A DNA stretch of 6,484 nucleotides, taken from a virus. Lineage: Duplodnaviria > Heunggongvirae > Uroviricota > Caudoviricetes. The stretch lies in the IMG/VR virus record IMGVR_UViG_2734482598_000009. One strand, given 5' to 3'. The notes under the pieces were generated by a model. That model made no database searches. It was given only the letters and a program-made list of their open reading frames with translations, and was not told the origin of the DNA. Numbering within the stretch: position 1 is the stretch's first letter; each line of letters opens with the position of its first letter. The position numbers were made by a program, and so were the translations under genes. Below, in pieces: positions 1-6,484 of this stretch.

Positions 1-107
1 CTCTCGTCTGGGGAATATCTCCCCGGCAGCCTTCAGGGAAAAATATCATCAGATGGCTGCTTAAAAAAAGAACAAATGGTAGTGTCCGCTATTGCCAGTA
101 CACCTCA
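1..107. repeat. Left copy of a 107-bp perfect terminal inverted repeat (partner 6378-6484)
   Basis: Bases 1-107 are the exact reverse complement of 6378-6484; the match ends at 108/6377. The repeat covers the upstream region and first 11 codons of the 76..306 ORF. Confidence 0.9.
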
Positions 108-306
108 TCCATCACCGAAAAAAATTGGCTTTTACACCATTGGCGATAAAAGCATTTACCTGTATGACCTACGCCGCATGGATGAAATCATGGAGGCTCT
201 TGATAATCGTTCGTCGATGGATTGGTGTGTTGCTGTTCATGATATGAATGCAGGGTTTGATGAAAAGATTTTGTTCCCCTCATCAGTTGAAAGCACTGCG
301 GGTTAA
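76..306 (+). CDS. Hypothetical protein, possibly 5'-truncated by the window edge
   Basis: ATG at 76 but no Shine-Dalgarno sequence upstream, and the frame has no stop between base 1 and 75, so the gene may start upstream of the window. Stop TAA at 304-306. No family recognised. Confidence 0.4.
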   Translation: MVVSAIASTPHPSPKKIGFYTIGDKSIYLYDLRRMDEIMEALDNRSSMDWCVAVHDMNAGFDEKILFPSSVESTAG

Positions 307-316
307 GGAGTAACAC

Positions 317-484
317 ATGACCACTATTACCAAAGAACGTATTGAATTGTTCATTAAAAACCCGCTTGAAAACGGGCTTACCCGTGGTGAACAAATGGAA
401 CTGGCACGGATTGCGCTGGCATCGCTGGAAGCAGAGCCGGTTGTGTTCTGGTTTGAAAAATATCAAGAAGGGGCTACGGCATGA
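317..484 (+). CDS. Small hypothetical protein (55 aa), first gene of a translationally coupled trio
   Basis: Strong RBS AAGGAG at 305-310, ATG at 317. Stop TGA 482-484 overlaps the next start (ATGA). Not in the supplied ORF track because it is under 60 aa. Shares the motifs MTT.T.E and IAL(A/V)SL(E/A)AEP with the next ORF. Confidence 0.55.
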
Positions 485-825
485 CGACTTTTACCAGAGA
501 GCAGTTAATAGCTCACGCAGAGGAGACTATTGAAGCACAGAGACTGTGCATACCGGGCACAATCGACCATGACATCATCCGCACATATAAGATGGATATT
601 GCTGTTCTGGAAATCGCACTGGTATCGCTGGCAGCAGAGCCAGCCGGTAAATTGCATGAATACAAACCAGTGGGATATCAGCGTCTGGTCGATGAGTTAA
701 CCATGCTGGTAAAGCAGTTAACCTGGCAACTGAGGAAAGCGAAGCCAGACTGCAAATTACCGGATAAGGCGATGAGTTATCTGGAGCGGAACGGACTGAT
801 AAGCGTGGAGGATATTTTACGATGA
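481..825 (+). CDS. Hypothetical protein (114 aa), N-terminal region paralogous to the upstream 55-aa ORF
   Basis: ATG at 481 overlaps the upstream stop (ATGA). [10 protein letters not shown] here matches [10 protein letters not shown] in the 55-aa ORF. Stop TGA 823-825 overlaps the next ATG. Confidence 0.6.
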
Positions 826-905
826 CCTGGCCTGAAGCATTAACAACGGTAGGAATTGCGATGGCGGTGGCGCTGGTGGTGTATTCGATTTGCCGCTGGG
901 GATAA
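822..905 (+). CDS. Small hydrophobic peptide (27 aa, [27 protein letters not shown]), putative single-pass membrane peptide
   Basis: RBS GGAGGA at 806-811, ATG at 822 overlapping the upstream TGA (ATGA), stop TAA 903-905. One hydrophobic stretch of about 18 residues. Very short, so coding status is uncertain. Confidence 0.35.
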
Positions 906-912
906 AAACGGT

Positions 913-940
913 TTGCGGGAAAAGGAGAGTTAAGTAGAAT
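913..940 (+). promoter_or_regulatory. Candidate sigma70 promoter for the hok mRNA (TTGCGG, 16-nt spacer, TAGAAT)
   Basis: -35 TTGCGG at 913-918 and -10 TAGAAT at 935-940. The predicted start near 947 coincides with the 5' element that is complementary to the mRNA 3' end. Confidence 0.4.
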
Positions 941-1059
941 TGCAGCGGGTGCTTGAGGCTATCTGTCTCAGGCATGAACACCAAAAGGCAGATAGAGAAA
1001 AGCCCCAGTTAACATTACGCGTCCGGCAAGACGCTTAACATTAATCTGAGGCTCAATCT

Positions 1060-1272
1060 ATGAACGGCAAATCTAGGTTAGCCTCTTACGTGCCGAAAGG
1101 CAAGGAGAAGCAGGCTATGAAGCAGCAAAAGGCGATGTTAATCGCCCTGATCGTCATCTGTTTAACCGTCATAGTGACGGCACTGGTAACGAGGAAAGAC
1201 CTCTGCGAGGTACGAATTCGAACCGGCCAGACGGAGGTCGCTGTCTTCACAGCTTACGAACCTGAGGAGTAA
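1060..1272 (+). CDS. Mok-like reading frame (N-terminally extended, in frame with hok, shared stop)
   Basis: ATG at 1060 with GAGG 8 nt upstream; 70-aa ORF whose last 51 codons are the Hok toxin. In-frame mok/hok arrangement with shared stop is recalled from chromosomal hok loci. Confidence 0.5.
   Translation: MNGKSRLASYVPKGKEKQAMKQQKAMLIALIVICLTVIVTALVTRKDLCEVRIRTGQTEVAVFTAYEPEE
1117..1272 (+). CDS. hokD: Hok/Gef-family type I toxin (51 aa), most like HokD/RelF
   Basis: MKQQKAMLIALIVICLTVIVTALVTRKDLCEVRIRTGQTEVAVFTAYEPEE carries the Hok hallmark (hydrophobic TM helix, TRK.LCE, conserved EV.AF.AYE). RBS AAGGAG at 1102-1107 with 9-nt spacing to ATG 1117. The hokD name is from recalled sequence. 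Confidence 0.85.
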   Translation: MKQQKAMLIALIVICLTVIVTALVTRKDLCEVRIRTGQTEVAVFTAYEPEE

Positions 1273-1321
1273 GAGACCAGGCGGGGGAGAAATCCCTCGC
1301 CACCTCTGATGGGTCAGGCAT

Positions 1322-1334
1322 CCTCAATGCACCC
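1322..1334 (+). promoter_or_regulatory. fbi-like 3' element of hok mRNA, complementary to the 5' end (947-958)
   Basis: 947-958 GGGTGCTTGAGG pairs antiparallel with 1322-1334 CCTCAATGCACCC as 6 bp + 1-nt bulge + 6 bp. This matches the fold-back (tac/fbi) architecture known for hok mRNAs. Confidence 0.45.
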
Positions 1335-1341
1335 ACACTTA

Positions 1342-1367
1342 ACCCGCTTCGGCGGGTTTTTGTTTTT
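1342..1367 (+). terminator. Intrinsic terminator of the hok transcript
   Basis: 6-bp stem ACCCGC/GCGGGT with a TTCG tetraloop (1342-1357), followed by TTTTTGTTTTT. Confidence 0.75.
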
Positions 1368-1492
1368 ATTTTCAACGCGTTTGAAGTTTTAGATGGTGCC
1401 GGAATAGAATCAAAAATACTTAAGTAGCGCGCAGGGAGAAGAGGGATGGACCCCGAACAGGGGAGTGCTATTTATCTGGAAGGATTCTGTTG

Positions 1493-1774
1493 ATGAAAAT
1501 CGAAGAATTACGTGAAATTTTTAGTGAAGATGGCCTCTATACTGTGCGCGTTGAGAATGGCGCTATTGTCAGCCACTGCCTTCCAGACTACACAATTCTG
1601 ATAATTCAGCCGTCTTTGCCAGCAGGCACGGGCGGCGCTCTCACGCATTTAAATCTGATTGGTACCAGCATCCCCCATGCACTGAAGAACAGGCCGAATG
1701 GCTCATTCAGTGTTACCGCAGGCGCGGATGCGAGGTTAAAAAAGCCCTTAGCCTCGACTACCGTCACTGGATAA
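1493..1774 (+). CDS. Rem-like small protein (positional analogue of Qin rem); probable frameshift into the alternative frame that ends at 1848
   Basis: RBS GGAAGGA at 1478-1484, ATG at 1493 (the ORF track starts at TTG 1490). The N-terminal ~50 residues look protein-like and the rest is low-complexity. A second frame, open 1555-1848 with no start codon, encodes a protein-like sequence and stops at TAA 1846-1848 beside the next gene's RBS and start. Confidence 0.4.
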   Translation: MKIEELREIFSEDGLYTVRVENGAIVSHCLPDYTILIIQPSLPAGTGGALTHLNLIGTSIPHALKNRPNGSFSVTAGADARLKKPLASTTVTG

Positions 1775-1849
1775 TCTCCGTCAGGCTCCCTTACTCCGAA
1801 CGGCCAACGCGTCCGTCCCGCACATTCCAGCAACGGATCTGGAGGTAAT

Positions 1850-2908
1850 GTGCGGGTATTACTTCGACCTGTTCTGGTACCGGAACTCGGTCTGGTTATC
1901 GTTAAGCCAGGCCGTGAATCAATGTCAGCATTCCATAACGGCAGAATACTGGTGGAGCCGGAACCAAAAAGCATGCGTAATCTGCCGTCCGGGGTCGTTC
2001 CTGCCGCTCGCCAGCCGCTGGTGGAAGACAAAACATTGCTGCCGTTTTTCAGTAACGCACGGGTGATTCGTGCTGCTGGTGGTGCTGGTGCATTGTCTGA
2101 CTGGCTGTTGCGCCATATTAAATCCTGCCAGTGGCCACACGGCGATTATCATCACAGCGAAACCGTCATTCACCGTTATGGTACCGGCGCAATGGTGTTG
2201 TGCTGGCACTGCGACAACCAGCTGCGTGACCAGACATCCGAATCACTCGAGCAACTTGCTCATCAAAACCTGTCAGCATGGATGATTGACGTCATCGGTC
2301 ACGCAATAAGCGGTACGCAGGAGCGTGAATTATCTCTGGCTGAATTATCCTGGTGGGCGGTCCGCAATCAGGTGGCGGACGCGCTACCGGAAGCGGTATT
2401 ACGTCGTTCGCTGGGGTTGCGTGCGGAAAAAATTCGCTCTGTGTACAGTGAAAGCGACATCATACCGGGAGAGCAGACAGCCACCAGCATACTGAAGCAG
2501 CGCACAAAAAATATTGCGTTACTGCCTCACGTCCACCAGCAACAGAACCCACCACAGGAAAAGACGGTGGTCAGCATTGCCGTTGATCCGGAGTCACCGG
2601 CTCAGTATCTCCAGCGCCAGAAATCACAACGGGAAGAGATGCCTGTATACACGCGCTGGGTAAAAACGCAGAAATGCATGACGTGTGGCAATCAGGCAGA
2701 TGATCCGCATCACATCATTGGTCATGGACTGGGAGGGATGGGAACAAAGGCTGATGATTTGTTTGTTATTCCGTTATGCCGTAAATGCCGTAACGAACTA
2801 CATGCCGGAGTAAAAGATTTTGAAGAGAAACACGGCAGTCAGCTGTTGTTGCTGATTCGTTTTTTAATGCACGCGAGAAATTCGGGTGTTCTGAAGTGGA
2901 AAGCATAA
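1850..2908 (+). CDS. DUF968-family prophage protein (YdfU-like) with a C-terminal HNH-like Cys/His motif
   Basis: 352-aa ORF from GTG 1850 with GGAGG at 1841-1845 (alternative ATG at 1922). C-terminus CMTCGNQADDPHHIIGHGLGG...LCRKCRNELH has CxxC...HH...CxxC...H. Sits immediately upstream of rusA, as ydfU-like genes do in lambdoid nin regions. Family call is from memory. Confidence 0.75.
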   Translation: MRVLLRPVLVPELGLVIVKPGRESMSAFHNGRILVEPEPKSMRNLPSGVVPAARQPLVEDKTLLPFFSNARVIRAAGGAGALSDWLLRHIKSCQWPHGDYHHSETVIHRYGTGAMVLCWHCDNQLRDQTSESLEQLAHQNLSAWMIDVIGHAISGTQERELSLAELSWWAVRNQVADALPEAVLRRSLGLRAEKIRSVYSESDIIPGEQTATSILKQRTKNIALLPHVHQQQNPPQEKTVVSIAVDPESPAQYLQRQKSQREEMPVYTRWVKTQKCMTCGNQADDPHHIIGHGLGGMGTKADDLFVIPLCRKCRNELHAGVKDFEEKHGSQLLLLIRFLMHARNSGVLKWKA

Positions 2909-3289
2909 ATGACCGAGCGCATAGAATTTGTTTTACCTTACCCGCCGACGGTGAACACTTACTGGCGTCGTCGTGGCAGCACATATTTTGTATCAAAAGC
3001 CGGGGAGCGTTATCGCCGGGCAGTGGCGCTTATTGTTCGCCAGCAGCGGCTGAAATTAAGCCTGTCCGGAAGGTTGGCAATAAAAATTATTGCAGAACCA
3101 CCGGATAAGCGCCGCCGTGACCTGGACAATATTCTGAAAGCGCCGCTGGATGCGCTGACGCATGCGGGGTTGCTAATGGACGATGAGCAGTTTGATGAAA
3201 TCAATATCGTTCGTGCTCAGCCAGTATCTGGTGGACGTCTGGGGGTGAAGATTTATCCCATAATGCTTGAAGGGCAGGTCAAAAAATGA
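2909..3289 (+). CDS. rusA: Crossover junction endodeoxyribonuclease RusA (Holliday junction resolvase)
   Basis: 126-aa product with PDKRRRDLDNILKAPLDALTHAGLLMDDEQF, matching the RusA catalytic core (PDRRRRDLDN...DALT.AG...DD). Start ATG 2909 directly follows the upstream TAA, and stop TGA 3287-3289 overlaps the next ATG. Confidence 0.9.
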   Translation: MTERIEFVLPYPPTVNTYWRRRGSTYFVSKAGERYRRAVALIVRQQRLKLSLSGRLAIKIIAEPPDKRRRDLDNILKAPLDALTHAGLLMDDEQFDEINIVRAQPVSGGRLGVKIYPIMLEGQVKK

Positions 3290-4005
3290 AACTGGAAGAT
3301 TTACCGNNNNNNNNNNNNNNNNNNNNNNNNNNNNNNNNNNNNNNNNNNNNNNNNNNNNNNNNNNNNNNNNNNNNNNNNNNNNNNNNNNNNNNNNNNNNNN
3401 NNNNNNNNNNNNNNNNNNNNNNNNNNNNNNNNNNNNNNNNNNNNNNNGCAGAAATAAAACCGGCAGTGATGCGTATTATGGCTTCGTATGCGTTTGAAGA
3501 TTATGCCCGTAGCGCGGCGAGCAAAAAACAGTGCCCCTGCTGTCACGGAAAAAAATTTATTGAAAGCGAGGTTTTTACAAACAAGATCCAGTATCCGGAT
3601 GGTAAGCCGCCGGTATGGGCAAAGTGTACGAAAGGTGTGTATCCGTCTTACTGGGAAGAATGGAAAAAAGTCAGGGAGGTGGTAAAAGTTGCCTGTCCGG
3701 AGTGTGGCGGAAAGGGTGAGGTTTCCACCGCCTGTAAGGATTGCCGTGGGCGTGGTGTCGCCATTCATCGTGAAGAGTCGGTAAAACGTGGTATGCCTGT
3801 TATCAGAGACTGCCAGCGTTGTGGTGGTCGTGGCTATGAAAGACTACCATCAACGGAGGCATTTAATGCTATATGCGAGGTGACAAACCAGATAACACGC
3901 GCGTCATGGGAAAAAACAGTTAAGAAATTTTATGATGCGCTGGTGACCCGGTTTGATATTGAAGAAGCATGGGCTGAGCGGCAGTTAAAAAAGGTAACTA
4001 GGTAA
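3286..4005 (+). CDS. Late antitermination protein Q (QuuQ-like) with four CxxCxGxG zinc-finger repeats; N-terminal part masked by Ns
   Basis: Lies between rusA and a PR'-like promoter. Contains CPCCHGKK, CPECGGKG, CKDCRGRG and CQRCGGRG. Frame is continuous across the 141-nt N-run (47 codons). Call is positional plus motif; 47 residues are unseen. Confidence 0.65.
   Translation: MKLEDLPXXXXXXXXXXXXXXXXXXXXXXXXXXXXXXXXXXXXXXXXXXXXXXXAEIKPAVMRIMASYAFEDYARSAASKKQCPCCHGKKFIESEVFTNKIQYPDGKPPVWAKCTKGVYPSYWEEWKKVREVVKVACPECGGKGEVSTACKDCRGRGVAIHREESVKRGMPVIRDCQRCGGRGYERLPSTEAFNAICEVTNQITRASWEKTVKKFYDALVTRFDIEEAWAERQLKKVTR
3307..3447. other. 141-nt run of N (masked or unsequenced) inside the Q gene
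   Basis: Literal N characters. Length is a multiple of 3 and the flanking frame is preserved. Confidence 0.95.
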
Positions 4006-4010
4006 CAAGG

Positions 4011-4050
4011 TTGATTTTTCCGGAATCTGTGGTAAATTCGTCATAACGAT
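4011..4050 (+). promoter_or_regulatory. PR'-like late promoter with promoter-proximal sigma70 pause element (qut-type region)
   Basis: -35 TTGATT 4011-4016; extended -10 TGgTAAATT 4030-4038; then CGTCAT followed by AACGATGGG (4045-4053). This parallels lambda PR' TAAATT-TGACTC-AACGATGGG (lambda sequence from memory). Starts 6 nt after the Q stop. Confidence 0.7.
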
Positions 4051-4086
4051 GGGCGTTTTATGCCTGACGTTAGAAGAGTTTCTACA

Positions 4087-4109
4087 ACCCGCCGCCGAGC
4101 GGGTTTTTT
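4087..4109 (+). terminator. Intrinsic terminator downstream of PR' (tR'-like)
   Basis: Stem CCCGC/GCGGG (4088-4092 / 4099-4103) with 6-nt loop, followed by TTTTTT 4104-4109. Confidence 0.6.
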
Positions 4110-4229
4110 ATGACTGAAATCGCGTCAGTACAGTAAACGCGCTGGTGGCGGTGAATACCTGTCTTTCAGCTTGCTGGCTTTTTCGACAAGAGTTATTGGT
4201 GTGTCACGTTAACCGGAAAAGGAAAAGAC

Positions 4230-4427
4230 ATGCTAAAACAGCAGGATATGACAGAAACCGCCAGAGTGGTGTTTAATGAATTAAGCGTTACCGAACCGGC
4301 GACAGTCGGGGAGATAGCGCAGAATACTTACCTTTCACGCGAACGCTGCCAGTTAATACTGACCCAGCTGGTTATGGCGGGTCTGGCAGACTATCAGTTC
4401 GGTTGTTACAGACGCCTTCCGCAGTGA
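4230..4427 (+). CDS. Small helix-turn-helix protein (65 aa), possibly winged-helix PapI/FaeA-like
   Basis: RBS AAAGGAAAAG at 4218-4227, ATG 4230. TVGEIAQNTYLSRERCQLILTQLVMAGL has an HTH pattern. Family assignment is tentative. Confidence 0.55.
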   Translation: MLKQQDMTETARVVFNELSVTEPATVGEIAQNTYLSRERCQLILTQLVMAGLADYQFGCYRRLPQ

Positions 4428-4437
4428 AGGCTTTTTT
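4414..4437 (+). terminator. Intrinsic terminator overlapping the stop of the HTH ORF
   Basis: Stem GCCTTC/GAAGGC (4414-4419 / 4426-4431) with 6-nt loop, then TTTTTT 4432-4437. Confidence 0.6.
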
Positions 4438-4454
4438 ATTTGTGGTAAATGGGC

Positions 4455-4485
4455 GGCTGGTGGGTGTTAGGGGCACCCACCAGCC
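4455..4485. promoter_or_regulatory. Perfect 12-bp inverted repeat separated by 7 bp (GGCTGGTGGGTG-ttagggg-CACCCACCAGCC); candidate operator or RNA hairpin
   Basis: Exact complementarity of 4455-4466 with 4474-4485. No U-tract on either strand, so it is not a canonical terminator. Lies between the HTH ORF and the methyltransferase. Confidence 0.6.
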
Positions 4486-4577
4486 ATCTGCTCATGCGTT
4501 GGGTTCACAAGCAAACCTCAGGCCCACTGCTTTGCGCAAAAGCAGAATGAGCCTATCAGAGACAGGCTTAATGATCC

Positions 4578-5636
4578 ATGCTTAATACTGTAAAAATATC
4601 CAGTTGTGAGTTAATCAACGCCGACTGCCTGGAATTTATCCGGTCGTTACCCGAAAATTCTGTTGACCTGATAGTCACGGACCCGCCGTACTTTAAAGTG
4701 AAGCCTGAGGGCTGGGATAACCAGTGGAAGGGCGACGATGATTACCTGAAGTGGCTGGACCAGTGTCTGGCGCAGTTCTGGCGGGTGCTGAAACCTGCCG
4801 GAAGTCTTTACCTGTTCTGTGGTCATCGCCTGGCATCTGATATCGAAATCATGATGCGTGAACGCTTCAGTGTGCTGAACCATATTATCTGGGCGAAGCC
4901 GTCCGGACGCTGGAACGGATGCAACAAGGAAAGCCTGCGGGCGTATTTCCCCGCCACAGAGCGCATTCTGTTCGCGGAACATTATCAGGGGCCGTATCGT
5001 CCGAAAGATGCCGGGTATGCGGCGAAGGGCAGTGCACTGAAACAGCATGTGATGGCCCCGCTGATTTCTTACTTTCGTGATGCGCGAGCTGCCCTGGGGA
5101 TAACGGCAAAACAGATTGCAGATGCCACAGGAAAGAAAAACATGGTGTCGCACTGGTTCAGTGCCGGTCAGTGGCAGTTGCCGAATGAAAGCGATTATCT
5201 GAAATTACAGGCGCTGTTTGCCCGGGTGGCAGAAGAGAAGCATCGGCGTGGTGAACTGGAAAAGCTCCACCACCAGCTGGTGGATACGTATACCTCACTG
5301 AACCGGCAGTATGCGGAGCTGCTGAGTGAATATAAACATCTGCGGCGGTATTTTGGCGTGACGGTGCAGGTGCCGTATACCGATGTGTGGACGCATAAAC
5401 CGGTGCAGTTCTATCCCGGGAAACATCCGTGCGAAAAACCGGCAGAAATGCTGCAGCAGATAATCAGCGCTAGCAGTCGTCCGGGTGACCTGATTGCAGA
5501 TTTTTTCATGGGGTTGGGTTCGACAGTGAAAGCGGCACTGGCGCTCGGGCGTCGTGCAATTGGCGTTGAGCTGGAGACTGAACGTTTTGAGCAGACGGTT
5601 CGGGAAGTACAGGATTTAGTCAGCCAGAACGGATGA
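4578..5636 (+). CDS. Orphan DNA methyltransferase, N6-adenine/N4-cytosine family, beta-class motif order
   Basis: 352 aa. Motif IV TDPPY near the N-terminus (DLIVTDPPYF) and motif I FxGxGS near the C-terminus (DFFMGLGST). No restriction endonuclease partner in the window. Weak RBS, and a 5-bp hairpin (4550-4568) lies just upstream of the start. Confidence 0.9.
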   Translation: MLNTVKISSCELINADCLEFIRSLPENSVDLIVTDPPYFKVKPEGWDNQWKGDDDYLKWLDQCLAQFWRVLKPAGSLYLFCGHRLASDIEIMMRERFSVLNHIIWAKPSGRWNGCNKESLRAYFPATERILFAEHYQGPYRPKDAGYAAKGSALKQHVMAPLISYFRDARAALGITAKQIADATGKKNMVSHWFSAGQWQLPNESDYLKLQALFARVAEEKHRRGELEKLHHQLVDTYTSLNRQYAELLSEYKHLRRYFGVTVQVPYTDVWTHKPVQFYPGKHPCEKPAEMLQQIISASSRPGDLIADFFMGLGSTVKAALALGRRAIGVELETERFEQTVREVQDLVSQNG

Positions 5637-5676
5637 TATTGAAGAATTAATTACGCGTCGTTATTATGCGGCTCCC

Positions 5677-5752
5677 GGCCCTTTAGCTCAGTGGTGAGAG
5701 CGAGCGACTCATAATCGCCAGGTCGCTGGTTCAAATCCAGCAAGGGCCACCA
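5677..5752 (+). tRNA. tRNA with CAU anticodon, ileX/ileZ-like (probably tRNA-Ile2 read via lysidine; tRNA-Met not excluded)
   Basis: Folds by hand into a cloverleaf: acceptor GGCCCTT/AAGGGCC, D-stem GCTC/GAGC, anticodon loop CTCATAA, T-arm GCTGG-TTCAAAT-CCAGC, encoded CCA. Close to the recalled E. coli ileX sequence. Confidence 0.85.
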
Positions 5753-5759
5753 TCACATA

Positions 5760-5795
5760 CCGCCATTAGCTCATCAGGAAAGAGCGCCAGCCTTC
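5760..5795 (+). tRNA. 5' part of a second tRNA running into the N-run; anticodon begins TC (consistent with tRNA-Arg UCU)
   Basis: Acceptor strand CCGCCAT, then TA, D-stem GCTC ... GAGC, anticodon stem CCAGC and loop starting CTTC before the Ns. Position 1 is C, which is unusual. Confidence 0.3.
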
Positions 5796-6045
5796 NNNNN
5801 NNNNNNNNNNNNNNNNNNNNNNNNNNNNNNNNNNNNNNNNNNNNNNNNNNNNNNNNNNNNNNNNNNNNNNNNNNNNNNNNNNNNNNNNNNNNNNNNNNNN
5901 NNNNNNNNNNNNNNNNNNNNNNNNNNNNNNNNNNNNNNNNNNNNNNNNNNNNNNNNNNNNNNNNNNNNNNNNNNNNNNNNNNNNNNNNNNNNNNNNNNNN
6001 NNNNNNNNNNNNNNNNNNNNNNNNNNNNNNNNNNNNNNNNNNNNN
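5796..6045. other. 250-nt run of N (masked or unsequenced), probably hiding the rest of the tRNA cluster
   Basis: Literal N characters, flanked by a tRNA 5' fragment and a possible tRNA 3' fragment. Confidence 0.95.
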
Positions 6046-6062
6046 GAATCCCCCTGTGCGGA
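6046..6062 (+). tRNA. Possible 3' end of a third tRNA (T-loop GAAT, T-stem CCCCC, acceptor TGTGCGG, discriminator A)
   Basis: GAATCCCCCTGTGCGGA right after the gap looks like a T-arm plus acceptor 3' strand. The implied 5' strand CCGCACA resembles the CCGCCAT start of the fragment at 5760. No encoded CCA. Confidence 0.2.
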
Positions 6063-6170
6063 GGGGCAATCAGCGAGTAGGTATATGGGATAATCGCGGA
6101 TTCAGGTGCTGGTACTGAATTCACCGGGAGGCACCCGGCATCATGCAATGGCACATAGCGCCACTCTCCA

Positions 6171-6191
6171 GCCCTCTCCGGAGGGGCTTTT
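6171..6191 (+). terminator. Terminator-like hairpin with T-run
   Basis: Stem CCCTC/GAGGG (6172-6176 / 6181-6185) with TCCG loop, then GC and TTTT (6188-6191). The U-tract is short and offset by 2 nt. Confidence 0.35.
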
Positions 6192-6377
6192 CTGTGCCGG
6201 ATACATCACAGTTTCTGGAACCTTAGGTACTACAGTATCAGTCAGGGTGCTATATTTTCAGATGTGATGAAAGCCTGTCAGCAGGCAGGGCGTATCGGAA
6301 ATGACCCAGTAGAGAAAACGTTGACTCAGATACCGGTGCTGAGTTACCGGGAAACCGGCATCACATGACCGCTATCC

Positions 6378-6484
6378 TGAGGTGTACTGGCAATAGCGGA
6401 CACTACCATTTGTTCTTTTTTTAAGCAGCCATCTGATGATATTTTTCCCTGAAGGCTGCCGGGGAGATATTCCCCAGACGAGAG
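6378..6484. repeat. Right copy of the 107-bp perfect terminal inverted repeat (partner 1-107)
   Basis: Exact reverse complement of 1-107. On the minus strand it repeats the first 11 codons of the left-end ORF, then diverges and stops after 21 codons. Confidence 0.9.

What the first reader, a model, noticed from the sequence alone, without database searches (positions are those of the whole stretch)
913..1367. Apparently intact hok-type type I toxin locus with promoter, mok-like frame, fold-back element and terminator
The Hok toxin is unmistakable and the surrounding architecture is complete. There is a candidate promoter at 913-940; a structured leader with hairpins at 959-995 and 1008-1039; an in-frame mok-like extension from 1060; a GAAA-tetraloop hairpin at 1279-1300; and a 12-bp long-range complementarity between the predicted 5' end (947-958) and a 3' element (1322-1334) just before the terminator. 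That is the tac/fbi fold-back arrangement that keeps full-length hok mRNA translationally inert. I recall that chromosomal hok loci in K-12 are reported as inactivated, so an intact copy would be notable. I could not identify a convincing Sok antisense promoter on the minus strand by eye; the only candidates near the mok start are weak (for example TTGCCT-17-TAACCT on the minus strand).
Basis: partly seen in the sequence, partly recalled or inferred. Interest (0 to 1): 0.45.

Follow-up and report, generated by a model that had tools for sequence, protein, structure and literature searches.

The report
Intact prophage hok/sok toxin–antitoxin locus
This is a complete copy of the well-known hok/mok/sok RNA-controlled toxin–antitoxin module, of the type carried by lambda-like prophages (hokD/hokW), which is present in most E. 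coli genomes and is therefore ordinary.

Summary
Window 913-1367 holds a full hok/mok/sok type I toxin-antitoxin locus.

- Parts found: a hok promoter, a 5' tac element, an anti-SD box, a mok frame, a 51-aa Hok, a GAAA hairpin, a 3' fbi element and a terminator.
- Hok is 100% identical to K-12 HokD.
- The 12-bp tac/fbi pairing is kept in 31 of 32 related loci from six or more genera. One pair switches cleanly between U-A and C-G.
It sits where plasmid R1's Sok promoter sits. It is also identical to the sokW promoter whose -10 was mutated experimentally in prophage Sp5.
- Sok maps to 1068..998 (71 nt).

The locus is 93% identical to the annotated mokW/hokW/sokW of phage 933W. At least 80% of the 900-1400 query is present in 3,827 of 5,426 complete E. 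coli genomes. K-12 hokD lacks everything upstream of 1103, so this copy is the common full-length form and K-12 is the exception. Verdict: already known, low interest. Transcription, processing and killing were not tested here.

The parts
913..940 (+). hok/mok mRNA promoter: -35 TTGCGG (913-918), 16-nt spacer, -10 TAGAAT (935-940)
   Evidence: Direct read. A -10-like hexamer lies exactly 6 nt upstream of the 5' GGG in all 31 loci compared, while sequence further upstream is not conserved. The consensus scan missed it because the -35 matches only 3 of 6.
947..1367 (+). Predicted full-length hok mRNA, about 421 nt
   Evidence: MFE -169.2 kcal/mol, z = -6.6, with 5' and 3' ends paired. The start is inferred from the -10 position and the conserved GGG. 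The end is inferred from the terminator. Neither end was mapped experimentally here.
947..958 (+). tac (translational activator) element, GGGUGCUUGAGG
   Evidence: Pairs with fbi in the full-length fold and with ucb in the Rfam model structure. Covariation.
959..995 (+). 5' leader hairpin (959-968 with 986-995)
   Evidence: helix 2, 91% of cells paired, 3 pairs with compensatory changes.
1000..1006 (+). ucb / anti-SD box, AAGCCCC
   Evidence: GCCCC 1002-1006 pairs with the mok SD in the full-length MFE. AAGCCCC pairs with tac in the Rfam model structure. Both partners are nearly invariant in 32 loci.
998..1068 (-). Predicted Sok antisense RNA, 71 nt: 14-nt single-stranded 5' tail, long hairpin, UUUU tail
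   Evidence: Mapped from the sokW feature of phage 933W; 65 of 71 nt identical, with all differences in the first 10 nt. Fold -29.9 kcal/mol, z = -4.9. Hairpin covariation AU:21/GC:11 and GC:18/AU:12. Transcription was not tested here.
1075..1103 (-). Sok promoter: -35 TTGCCT (1103..1098), 17-nt spacer, -10 TAACCT (1080..1075)
   Evidence: Conserved in position in all 31 loci compared. Identical to 933W/Sp5 over this span. Three of the four substitutions in the published promoter-less sokW mutant fall in this hexamer. The start at 1068 is 7 nt downstream of the -10.
1048..1051 (+). mok Shine-Dalgarno, GAGG
   Evidence: Invariant in 32 of 32 loci. Paired with ucb in the closed fold and with dcb in the open fold.
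1060..1272 (+). mok reading frame (70 aa), in frame with hok and sharing its stop codon
   Evidence: Same layout as the annotated mokW of 933W and as the R1-type plasmid locus. In frame in most loci, out of frame in the Kluyvera-type loci.
1081..1085 (+). dcb (downstream complementary box), GCCUC
   Evidence: Pairs with GAGGC 1048-1052 in the Rfam model structure. Four of the five pairs are invariant in 32/32 loci and the fifth, C1052-G1081, is C-G in 27 (4 gapped, 1 unpaired).
1117..1272 (+). hok toxin gene, 51 aa, preceded by AAGGAG at 1102-1107
   Evidence: Pfam PF01848, E = 1.2e-23. 100% identical to the Hok of K-12-like genomes. Annotated hokD in RefSeq genomes.
1280..1301 (+). GAAA-loop hairpin in the 3' UTR, the likely 3' end-protecting stem of the processed mRNA
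   Evidence: Helix 16 is 94% paired across 32 loci. Its role as a processing stop is inferred from the R1 model.
1322..1334 (+). fbi (fold-back inhibition) element, CCUCAAUGCACCC, with U1328 bulged
   Evidence: 12-bp duplex with tac, -19.8 kcal/mol. Pair 950/1331 is U-A in 22 loci, C-G in 9 and U-G in 1, with none unpaired. Own partners beat permuted partners in 5,000 of 5,000 trials.
1341..1367 (+). Intrinsic terminator of the hok mRNA
   Evidence: 7-bp stem (5 G-C), UUCG loop, T run.

Best explanation
Window 913-1367 is an intact hok/mok/sok type I toxin-antitoxin module of the lambdoid-prophage hokD/hokW type.

How it most likely works, following the R1 model:
1. A promoter at 913-940 makes a stable mRNA of about 420 nt (947 to about 1367).
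2. In the full-length RNA, the 5' tac element (947-958) pairs with the 3' fbi element (1322-1334). The anti-SD box GCCCC (1002-1006) covers the mok Shine-Dalgarno (1048-1051). The message is then neither translated nor bound by Sok.
3. Slow 3' trimming back towards the GAAA hairpin (1280-1301) removes fbi.
4. tac can then pair with AAGCCCC (1000-1006). The SD region refolds with GCCUC (1081-1085) into the Sok-target hairpin. Translation of mok (1060) then allows translation of the in-frame hok (1117-1272), a 51-aa membrane toxin.
5. A short-lived 71-nt antisense RNA, Sok, is made from TTGCCT-17-TAACCT on the minus strand (RNA 1068..998). It pairs across the mok start, and the duplex is destroyed by RNase III. 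Cells are harmed only when Sok stops being replenished.

Shown here: the sequence elements, their complementarity, their conservation and the covariation of tac/fbi. Inferred from R1 and Sp5 work: transcription, processing, RNase III cleavage and killing.
For: - Family matches: Rfam RF01794 at 947-1122, 112.4 bits against a gathering score of 59, full model length, whose consensus structure is tac/ucb plus SD/dcb. Pfam HOK_GEF E = 1.2e-23.
- Fold: the MFE of 947-1367 closes tac on fbi and ucb on the SD, z = -6.6.
- Covariation on 32 loci (Escherichia, Shigella, Kluyvera, Citrobacter, Pseudocitrobacter, Photorhabdus, Pantoea, R1-type plasmid): 85% of cells paired against 40-47% when partners are slid; 152 compensatory cells against 33-75; 0 of 500 shuffles reach the observed values. 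tac/fbi is 91% paired, with U-A:22 / C-G:9 at 950/1331.
- The own 12-bp duplex is kept in 31 of 32 loci, and own partners beat permuted partners 5,000 of 5,000 times.
- Forced open fold costs 11.2 kcal/mol in the full-length RNA but only 1.3 after truncation.
- Sok: 65 of 71 nt identical to the annotated SokW of 933W, canonical tail-hairpin-U fold, promoter conserved in position in 31 loci and identical to the promoter whose -10 mutation released HokW toxicity (PMC8621323).
- Sp5 sokW RNA and hokW mRNA were detected by Northern blot, and hokW-sokW behaved as a toxin-antitoxin pair.
- HokD peptide is toxic on expression (bioRxiv 10.1101/2025.08.07.668861).
Against: - Nothing was measured for this exact sequence.
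- The hok -35 is poor (3 of 6), and the consensus scan reported neither promoter.
- After in-silico 3' truncation, the open fold is near-isoenergetic but is not the MFE. The MFE keeps the SD covered and uses a local 5' hairpin.
- tac/ucb and SD/dcb are almost invariant, so covariation cannot confirm them.
- Some native chromosomal hok loci were reported not to mediate post-segregational killing (cited), so structural integrity does not guarantee a phenotype.
- RNase III and Hfq were only partly required in Sp5.
Confidence: 0.9

Rival explanations
1. The locus is structurally intact but physiologically silent. It would be a selfish or relic module whose hok mRNA is too weakly expressed, or too tightly locked, to kill or to stabilise the prophage, as has been proposed for chromosomal hok loci.
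For: - The hok -35 matches only 3 of 6 and the consensus scan found no promoter.
- Native chromosomal hokA, hokB and hokC loci were reported not to mediate post-segregational killing or rifampicin activation (cited in bioRxiv 10.1101/2025.08.07.668861).
- The surrounding prophage fragment is bracketed by IS600 ends, which suggests a decaying prophage.
Against: - All regulatory elements are kept under visible constraint, including compensatory changes.
- Decayed copies look different: L004 has lost tac, and K-12 hokD has lost the whole leader.
- The 93%-identical hokW-sokW is active and affects Sp5 phage release (PMC8621323).
- A single chromosomal copy of R1 hok is lethal without Sok (PMC9841398).
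Confidence: 0.2
2. The 5'/3' complementarity and the minus-strand promoter-like hexamers are chance matches around a bare hok gene. This would resemble K-12 hokD, which is simply the last gene of another operon.
For: A 12-nt complement and a weak promoter-like site can each arise by chance. The promoter scan gives about 0.8 promoter-like sites per shuffle of this region.
Against: - The duplex is kept in 31 of 32 loci with compensatory U-A to C-G and G-C to A-U changes. Permuted partners never do as well.
- The Rfam match has E = 9.5e-26.
- Promoter positions are fixed in all 31 loci compared.
- K-12's similarity starts only at 1103, whereas this window carries the full leader.
Confidence: 0.01
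3. The module is active, but its main role in this prophage is not maintenance. It could instead help host lysis and phage release on induction, as reported for Sp5, or act as an abortive-infection defence against other phages.
For: - hokW-sokW halves or doubles Sp5 release depending on its presence, and Sok falls after mitomycin C (PMC8621323 abstract).
- hok/sok of R1 is cited as excluding T4 (reference list).
- The locus sits just upstream of the rem-ydfU-rusA-Q late-control region.
Against: - This concerns biological role, not mechanism, and nothing in the sequence separates the roles.
- No enrichment of hok near defence systems was found in the survey.
- The prophage here may be defective, given the IS600 ends on both sides.
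Confidence: 0.35

Closest known systems
mokW/hokW/sokW of Stx2 phage 933W and Sakai prophage 5 (AF125520.1; PMC8621323)
   Same: - 93% nucleotide identity over window 901-1344.
- Same layout: in-frame 70-aa mok, 51-aa hok, 71-nt antisense Sok.
- Identical sequence from 1075 to about 1210, covering the Sok promoter, dcb, hok SD and hok 5' half.
- Identical tac. fbi differs at a single base, the bulged one (U1328 here, C in 933W).

   Different: - 6 of the first 10 nt of Sok differ, which also changes mok codons 2-5 (MNGKS here, MLNTC in 933W).
- The Hok C-terminus differs: ...FTAYEPEE here, ...FVDYESEK in HokW.
- The genomic position differs. Here the locus lies upstream of rem-ydfU-rusA-Q, as in the Qin prophage. 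In 933W it lies near the right end of the genome.

hokD (relF) of the E. coli K-12 Qin prophage
   Same: - Hok protein 100% identical.
- 95% nucleotide identity from 1103 through the 3' UTR, fbi, terminator and on into the rem-like gene.
- Same downstream neighbours: rem, ydfU, Q.

   Different: K-12 has relB-relE directly upstream, and its similarity to the window stops at 1103. It therefore lacks the hok promoter, tac, ucb, the mok start, Sok and the Sok -10. The window is the full-length form of this locus.
hok/sok (parB) of plasmid R1, the prototype
   Same: - Same element order: tac, hairpin, ucb, mok SD, in-frame mok, dcb, Sok promoter at the same position (TTGCGC-17-TATCCT), hok, 3' hairpin, fbi.
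- A 5'/3' duplex of -17.2 kcal/mol.
(mechanism in PMC9841398)
   Different: - Sequence is distant. HokW is 44% identical to R1 Hok according to PMC8621323.
- tac is GGCGC... rather than GGGUGC....
- R1 has a longer first hairpin.
- R1 is plasmid-borne with a demonstrated post-segregational killing role.

Membership tests
[quoted passage not shown] | Small hydrophobic Hok/Gef toxin ORF of about 50 aa | tested here: met
   Pfam PF01848, 82.9 bits, E = 1.2e-23, full-length match. Intact 51-aa ORF at 1117-1272.
[quoted passage not shown] | mok leader frame with its own SD, starting upstream of hok and overlapping it | tested here: met
   GAGG at 1048-1051 and ATG at 1060, 70 aa, in frame with hok. 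Same as mokW and the R1-type locus. Translational coupling itself was not tested.
[quoted passage not shown] | hok mRNA leader matching the family covariance model (tac/ucb and SD/dcb stems) | tested here: met
   Rfam RF01794, 112.4 bits against a gathering score of 59, model positions 1-157 of 157. The partner boxes are nearly invariant in 32 loci.
[quoted passage not shown] | Long-range tac/fbi pairing that closes the full-length mRNA | tested here: met
   It is the MFE. 91% of cells paired, 4 pairs with compensatory change, U-A:22 / C-G:9 at 950/1331. Kept in 31 of 32 loci, and own partners beat permuted partners 5,000 of 5,000 times.
[quoted passage not shown] | cis-encoded antisense Sok RNA with its own promoter, covering the mok translation start | tested here: met
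   Met at the sequence level only. The promoter TTGCCT-17-TAACCT is conserved in position. The 71-nt RNA maps from the 933W annotation and has the tail-hairpin-U fold. Expression is known only for the Sp5 homologue.
[quoted passage not shown] | Refolding to a translatable, Sok-accessible form after 3' processing | tested here: inconclusive
   The cost of the open fold drops from 11.2 to 1.3 kcal/mol on truncation, but the open fold is not the MFE. The real 3' processing site is unknown.
[quoted passage not shown] | RNase III cleavage of the Sok-mRNA duplex, and killing when Sok decays | not testable with these tools
   Known for R1 (PMC9841398) and partly for Sp5 (PMC8621323).
prophage hokD/hokW subgroup | Near-identity to annotated hokD/hokW loci and location in a lambdoid prophage | tested here: met
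   - 98.4% to the best E. coli hokD locus.
- 93% to 933W mokW/hokW/sokW.
- Neighbours DUF968/YdfU, RusA, Q antiterminator, DNA methylase and tRNA.

The most novel reading that the evidence does not exclude
The patch at about 1056-1070 (the single-stranded 5' tail of Sok, which is also mok codons 2-4) is about four times more variable than the rest of the locus among close relatives. It may be a specificity code under diversifying selection. Such a code would keep the several hok/sok copies in one genome (median 2, up to 9) from cross-neutralising each other. This window's variant, shared with E. coli CAU16175, would then be one distinct specificity class.
Probability: 0.3. Interest if true: 0.3.

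Novelty: already known. Interest (0 to 1): 0.1.

Why it matters
It matters little as a discovery. The module, its RNA switch and its prophage variants are described, annotated in public phage records and surveyed at scale.

It has three modest uses.
- It is a clean worked example showing that the textbook R1 architecture, including the long-range tac/fbi lock, can be recovered by covariation in chromosomal and prophage copies across several genera.
- It shows what K-12's truncated hokD looked like before relBE replaced its leader.
- It is a reminder for annotation that RefSeq marks only the hok CDS here and leaves out mok, Sok and the regulatory RNA elements.

Tried and rejected
1. Consensus promoter scan. 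It found neither the hok nor the Sok promoter, because each has a hexamer below the scan's threshold. I used positional conservation and published mutagenesis instead.

2. I suspected that an in-frame mok was abnormal. I rejected this: the 933W annotation, the R1-type plasmid locus and most relatives are in frame, and only the Kluyvera-type loci are out of frame.

3. Alignment A2 was trimmed too short at both ends through my own coordinate error. I discarded it and replaced it with A3.

4. In A3, the second half of the tac/fbi helix is out of register for loci that lack the bulged base, so column counts understate the pairing. I added alignment-free duplex scoring.

5. In-silico 3' truncation did not flip the MFE to the open fold. 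I report this as inconclusive.

6. Weak Rfam hits in the hok 3' UTR (isrK 25.7 bits, rsmX 23.3 bits) are far below their gathering scores. I treated them as hairpin-plus-terminator resemblance.

7. I suspected the perfect 107-nt terminal inverted repeat was an assembly hairpin. It is the end of IS600 at both contig ends.

8. No supplement is held for PMC8621323. I used the primer table in the main text instead.

9. I looked for a YUNR U-turn motif in the Sok-target loop by eye. I found nothing consistent between the window and 933W and did not pursue it.

Full report
**What is there**

Reading the window directly and listing ORFs shows a 51-aa ORF at 1117-1272: MKQQKAMLIALIVICLTVIVTALVTRKDLCEVRIRTGQTEVAVFTAYEPEE. 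It matches Pfam HOK_GEF over the whole model (E = 1.2e-23). It is 100% identical to the Hok encoded in K-12-like genomes. An in-frame ATG at 1060 extends it to 70 aa.

Rfam's family RF01794 ('sok') matches 947-1122 on the plus strand at 112.4 bits (gathering score 59, E = 9.5e-26), across all 157 model positions. The match is on the hok-sense strand and ends at the hok AUG. Its consensus structure is the tac/ucb stem plus the SD/dcb hairpin. In practice, then, this model describes the hok mRNA leader in its open form.

**Checking each element of the finding**

Exact coordinates:
- hok promoter: -35 TTGCGG 913-918, -10 TAGAAT 935-940
- tac: 947-958
- AAGCCCC (ucb): 1000-1006
- mok SD GAGG: 1048-1051
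- mok ATG: 1060
- GCCUC (dcb): 1081-1085
- hok SD AAGGAG: 1102-1107
- GAAA hairpin: 1280-1301
- fbi CCUCAAUGCACCC: 1322-1334
- terminator: 1341-1367

The minimum-energy fold of 947-1367 is -169.2 kcal/mol, against -127.6 +/- 6.3 for shuffles (z = -6.6). It pairs 947-958 with 1322-1334, with U1328 bulged. It also pairs GCCCC 1002-1006 with the mok SD.

**How common it is, and the context**

At least 80% of the 900-1400 query is found in 3,827 of 5,426 complete E. coli genomes, with a median of 2 places per genome and up to 9. The best identity is 98.4%, and the locus is annotated hokD. It also occurs in 78 phage records, including Stx phages.

The window's neighbours mark the late-control region of a lambdoid prophage, as in K-12's Qin prophage:
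- a rem-like ORF
- DUF968/YdfU
- RusA
- a Q antiterminator
- an N6/N4 DNA methylase
- a tRNA

In K-12, relB-relE lie directly upstream of hokD, and similarity to the window begins only at 1103. K-12 therefore lacks the promoter, tac, ucb, the mok start and Sok. This fits the literature statement that K-12's hok loci other than hokB are inactivated by insertion elements or rearrangement (PMC12214031). The window is the common full-length form, and K-12 is the exception.

**Sok**

Phage 933W is 93% identical over 901-1344 and carries annotated mokW, hokW and a 71-nt sokW. Mapping these gives Sok at window 1068..998 on the minus strand. It is identical to SokW at 65 of 71 nt, and all six differences lie in the first ten bases. 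It folds into a 14-nt free 5' tail, a long hairpin and a U tail (-29.9 kcal/mol, z = -4.9).

Its promoter is TTGCCT (1103..1098), a 17-nt spacer, then TAACCT (1080..1075), with the start 7 nt downstream.
- It is the positional homologue of R1's TTGCGC-17-TATCCT.
- It is present at the same place in all 31 loci compared.
- It is identical in 933W.

In PMC8621323 a promoter-less sokW mutant released HokW toxicity, and sokW supplied in trans partly restored growth. The mutagenic primer YO-421 aligns to window 1074-1099 with four mismatches. Three of them fall in the TAACCT hexamer, at positions 1, 3 and 6. That paper also detected sokW RNA and hokW mRNA by Northern blot and found partial dependence on RNase III and Hfq.

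**Covariation**

I collected hok loci from one genome per species and aligned 32 full-length copies (A3). They come from Escherichia, Shigella, Kluyvera, Citrobacter, Pseudocitrobacter, Photorhabdus and Pantoea, plus 933W and an R1-type plasmid.

Closed (full-length) fold:

| Measure | Observed | Partners slid by 1-3 columns |
|---|---|---|
| Cells forming a standard pair | 85.0% | 40-47% |
| Cells changed on both sides | 152 | 33-75 |

None of 500 shuffles reached the observed pairing, compensatory-cell count or covariation score.

The tac/fbi helix is 91% paired. Pair 950/1331 is U-A in 22 loci, C-G in 9 and U-G in 1, with none unpaired. The outermost pair, 958/1322, is G-C in 18 and A-U in 5.

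Loci without the bulged base are out of register in the alignment, so I also scored each locus's own 5' 13-mer against its own 3' 18-mer.
- A 12-bp duplex of -17 to -24 kcal/mol is present in 31 of 32 loci.
- The exception, L004, has a decayed 5' end (-4.6 kcal/mol).
- Own partners beat permuted partners in all 5,000 permutations.
- Shuffled 3' elements give -9.3 +/- 2.7 kcal/mol.

For the open fold, tac/ucb and SD/dcb are nearly invariant on both sides. They are consistent with the model but uninformative by covariation. Position 950 is the one tac base that varies. It is bulged in tac/ucb but paired, with compensation, in tac/fbi. That is what two alternative pairings of the same element would predict.

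**The switch**

In the full-length RNA, forcing tac/ucb plus SD/dcb costs 11.2 kcal/mol relative to the MFE. After removing the 3' end (947-1306) it costs only 1.3 kcal/mol. However, the truncated MFE still covers the SD. It uses a local hairpin between tac and the sequence just downstream, which resembles the metastable hairpin described for nascent R1 hok mRNA (PMC9841398). The in-silico switch is therefore plausible but not demonstrated.

**Mechanism**

The best-supported mechanism is the R1 model transferred to this locus (PMC9841398):
1. A stable full-length mRNA is locked by tac/fbi and ucb/SD.
2. Slow 3' trimming removes fbi.
3. The RNA refolds to tac/ucb and SD/dcb.
4. mok-dependent translation of Hok follows, unless the short-lived Sok pairs across the mok start and the duplex is degraded.

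The elements, their complementarity and the tac/fbi covariation are shown here. Transcription, processing, RNase III cleavage and killing are inferred from R1 and Sp5.

**Comparison and novelty**

The closest known loci are mokW/hokW/sokW of 933W/Sp5, K-12 hokD (the same toxin, truncated locus) and R1 hok/sok (the same architecture, distant sequence). All the sequence-level defining features of the family that I could test are met.

A recent survey counts 44,248 Hok homologues and finds hok enriched in prophages, 23% against 5% expected (bioRxiv 10.1101/2025.08.07.668861). The finding is real and correctly interpreted, but already known. Interest is low.

**Side observations**

- The window's two ends (1-107 and 6378-6484) are a perfect inverted repeat. 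They are the terminal sequence of IS600, an IS3-family element. Prophage similarity covers only 108-6377.
- Among close relatives, the patch at 1056-1070 (Sok's 5' tail) is about four times as variable as the locus average, 0.38-0.41 against 0.105. The window's variant recurs in E. coli CAU16175.
- Hok Tyr47 is TAC followed by G (1255-1258), and TACGAA is invariant in all 32 loci. This is the position reported to be recoded to Cys by A-to-I editing in hokC, hokD and hokE (PMC12214031).

Noticed in passing
window 1-107 and 6378-6484: The two ends of the window are a perfect 107-nt inverted repeat. The sequence is the terminal part of IS600 (IS3 family), present up to 43 times per E. coli genome. 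Prophage similarity covers only 108-6377. So the fragment is bracketed by inverted IS600 copies where the contig breaks.
   Followed up: yes
window 1056-1070: Among seven close relatives, the patch covering Sok's single-stranded 5' tail and mok codons 2-4 has a mean pairwise difference of 0.38-0.41, against 0.105 for the whole locus. The hairpin loop at 974-987 is similarly variable. Mok residues 2-5 differ in nearly every copy (MNGKS, MLNTC, MSHKC, MLCTC...). This may be a Sok/target specificity determinant. The window's variant also occurs in E. coli CAU16175.
   Followed up: partly
window 1255-1258: Hok Tyr47 is encoded TAC followed by G, and TACGAA is invariant in all 32 aligned loci. This corresponds to the C-terminal Tyr reported to be recoded to Cys by A-to-I mRNA editing in hokC, hokD and hokE, with hokD edited at 6% (PMC12214031).
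   Followed up: partly
window 1103, against K-12 MG1655 hokD (L055): K-12's similarity to the window starts exactly at 1103, inside the Sok -35, with relE immediately upstream. This marks the rearrangement breakpoint that stripped K-12 hokD of its promoter, tac, ucb, mok start and Sok.
   Followed up: yes
window 3307-3447 and 5796-6045: There are two runs of N. The first lies inside the Q-antiterminator ORF (3286-4005). The second follows tRNA-Met(CAT) at 5677-5752 and the start of what looks like a second tRNA at about 5760, and it runs into the Rfam STnc100 match at 6017-6199 (69.8 bits). A weak second STnc100-like match lies at 6238-6426.
   Followed up: no
window 947-1122 (Rfam RF01794): The Rfam family named 'sok antitoxin' matches the hok-sense strand and ends at the hok AUG. 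Its consensus structure is tac/ucb plus SD/dcb. It therefore describes the hok mRNA leader rather than the antisense RNA itself.
   Followed up: partly
loci L024, L027, L028, L030, L022, L010 (Kluyvera and relatives): In loci whose Sok -35 is TTGACC (one extra base compared with TTGCCT), the mok frame is shifted +1 relative to hok. In the window, 933W, R1 and Photorhabdus it is in frame. Both layouts occur naturally.
   Followed up: partly
loci L004, L014, L046, L005, L042: These are decayed copies for comparison. L004 has a mutated tac (duplex only -4.6 kcal/mol). L014 diverges just after the 3' hairpin and so lacks fbi. L046 is degenerate. L005 and L042 are K-12-like copies lacking the leader.
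   Followed up: partly
loci L016 (275 nt), L021 (431 nt), L054; phage record PP818812.1: Very short contigs filed under Acinetobacter idrijaensis and Xanthomonas pisi, and an 'Actinobacillus phage' record, carry Hok 96-100% identical to the E. coli type. These are more likely contamination or mislabelling than true hosts.
   Followed up: no
window 1381-1410: The only site the consensus scan reported in this region is a promoter-like TTGAAG-18-TAGAAT just after the hok terminator, upstream of the rem-like ORF (1490-1774). It is also conserved in K-12.
   Followed up: no
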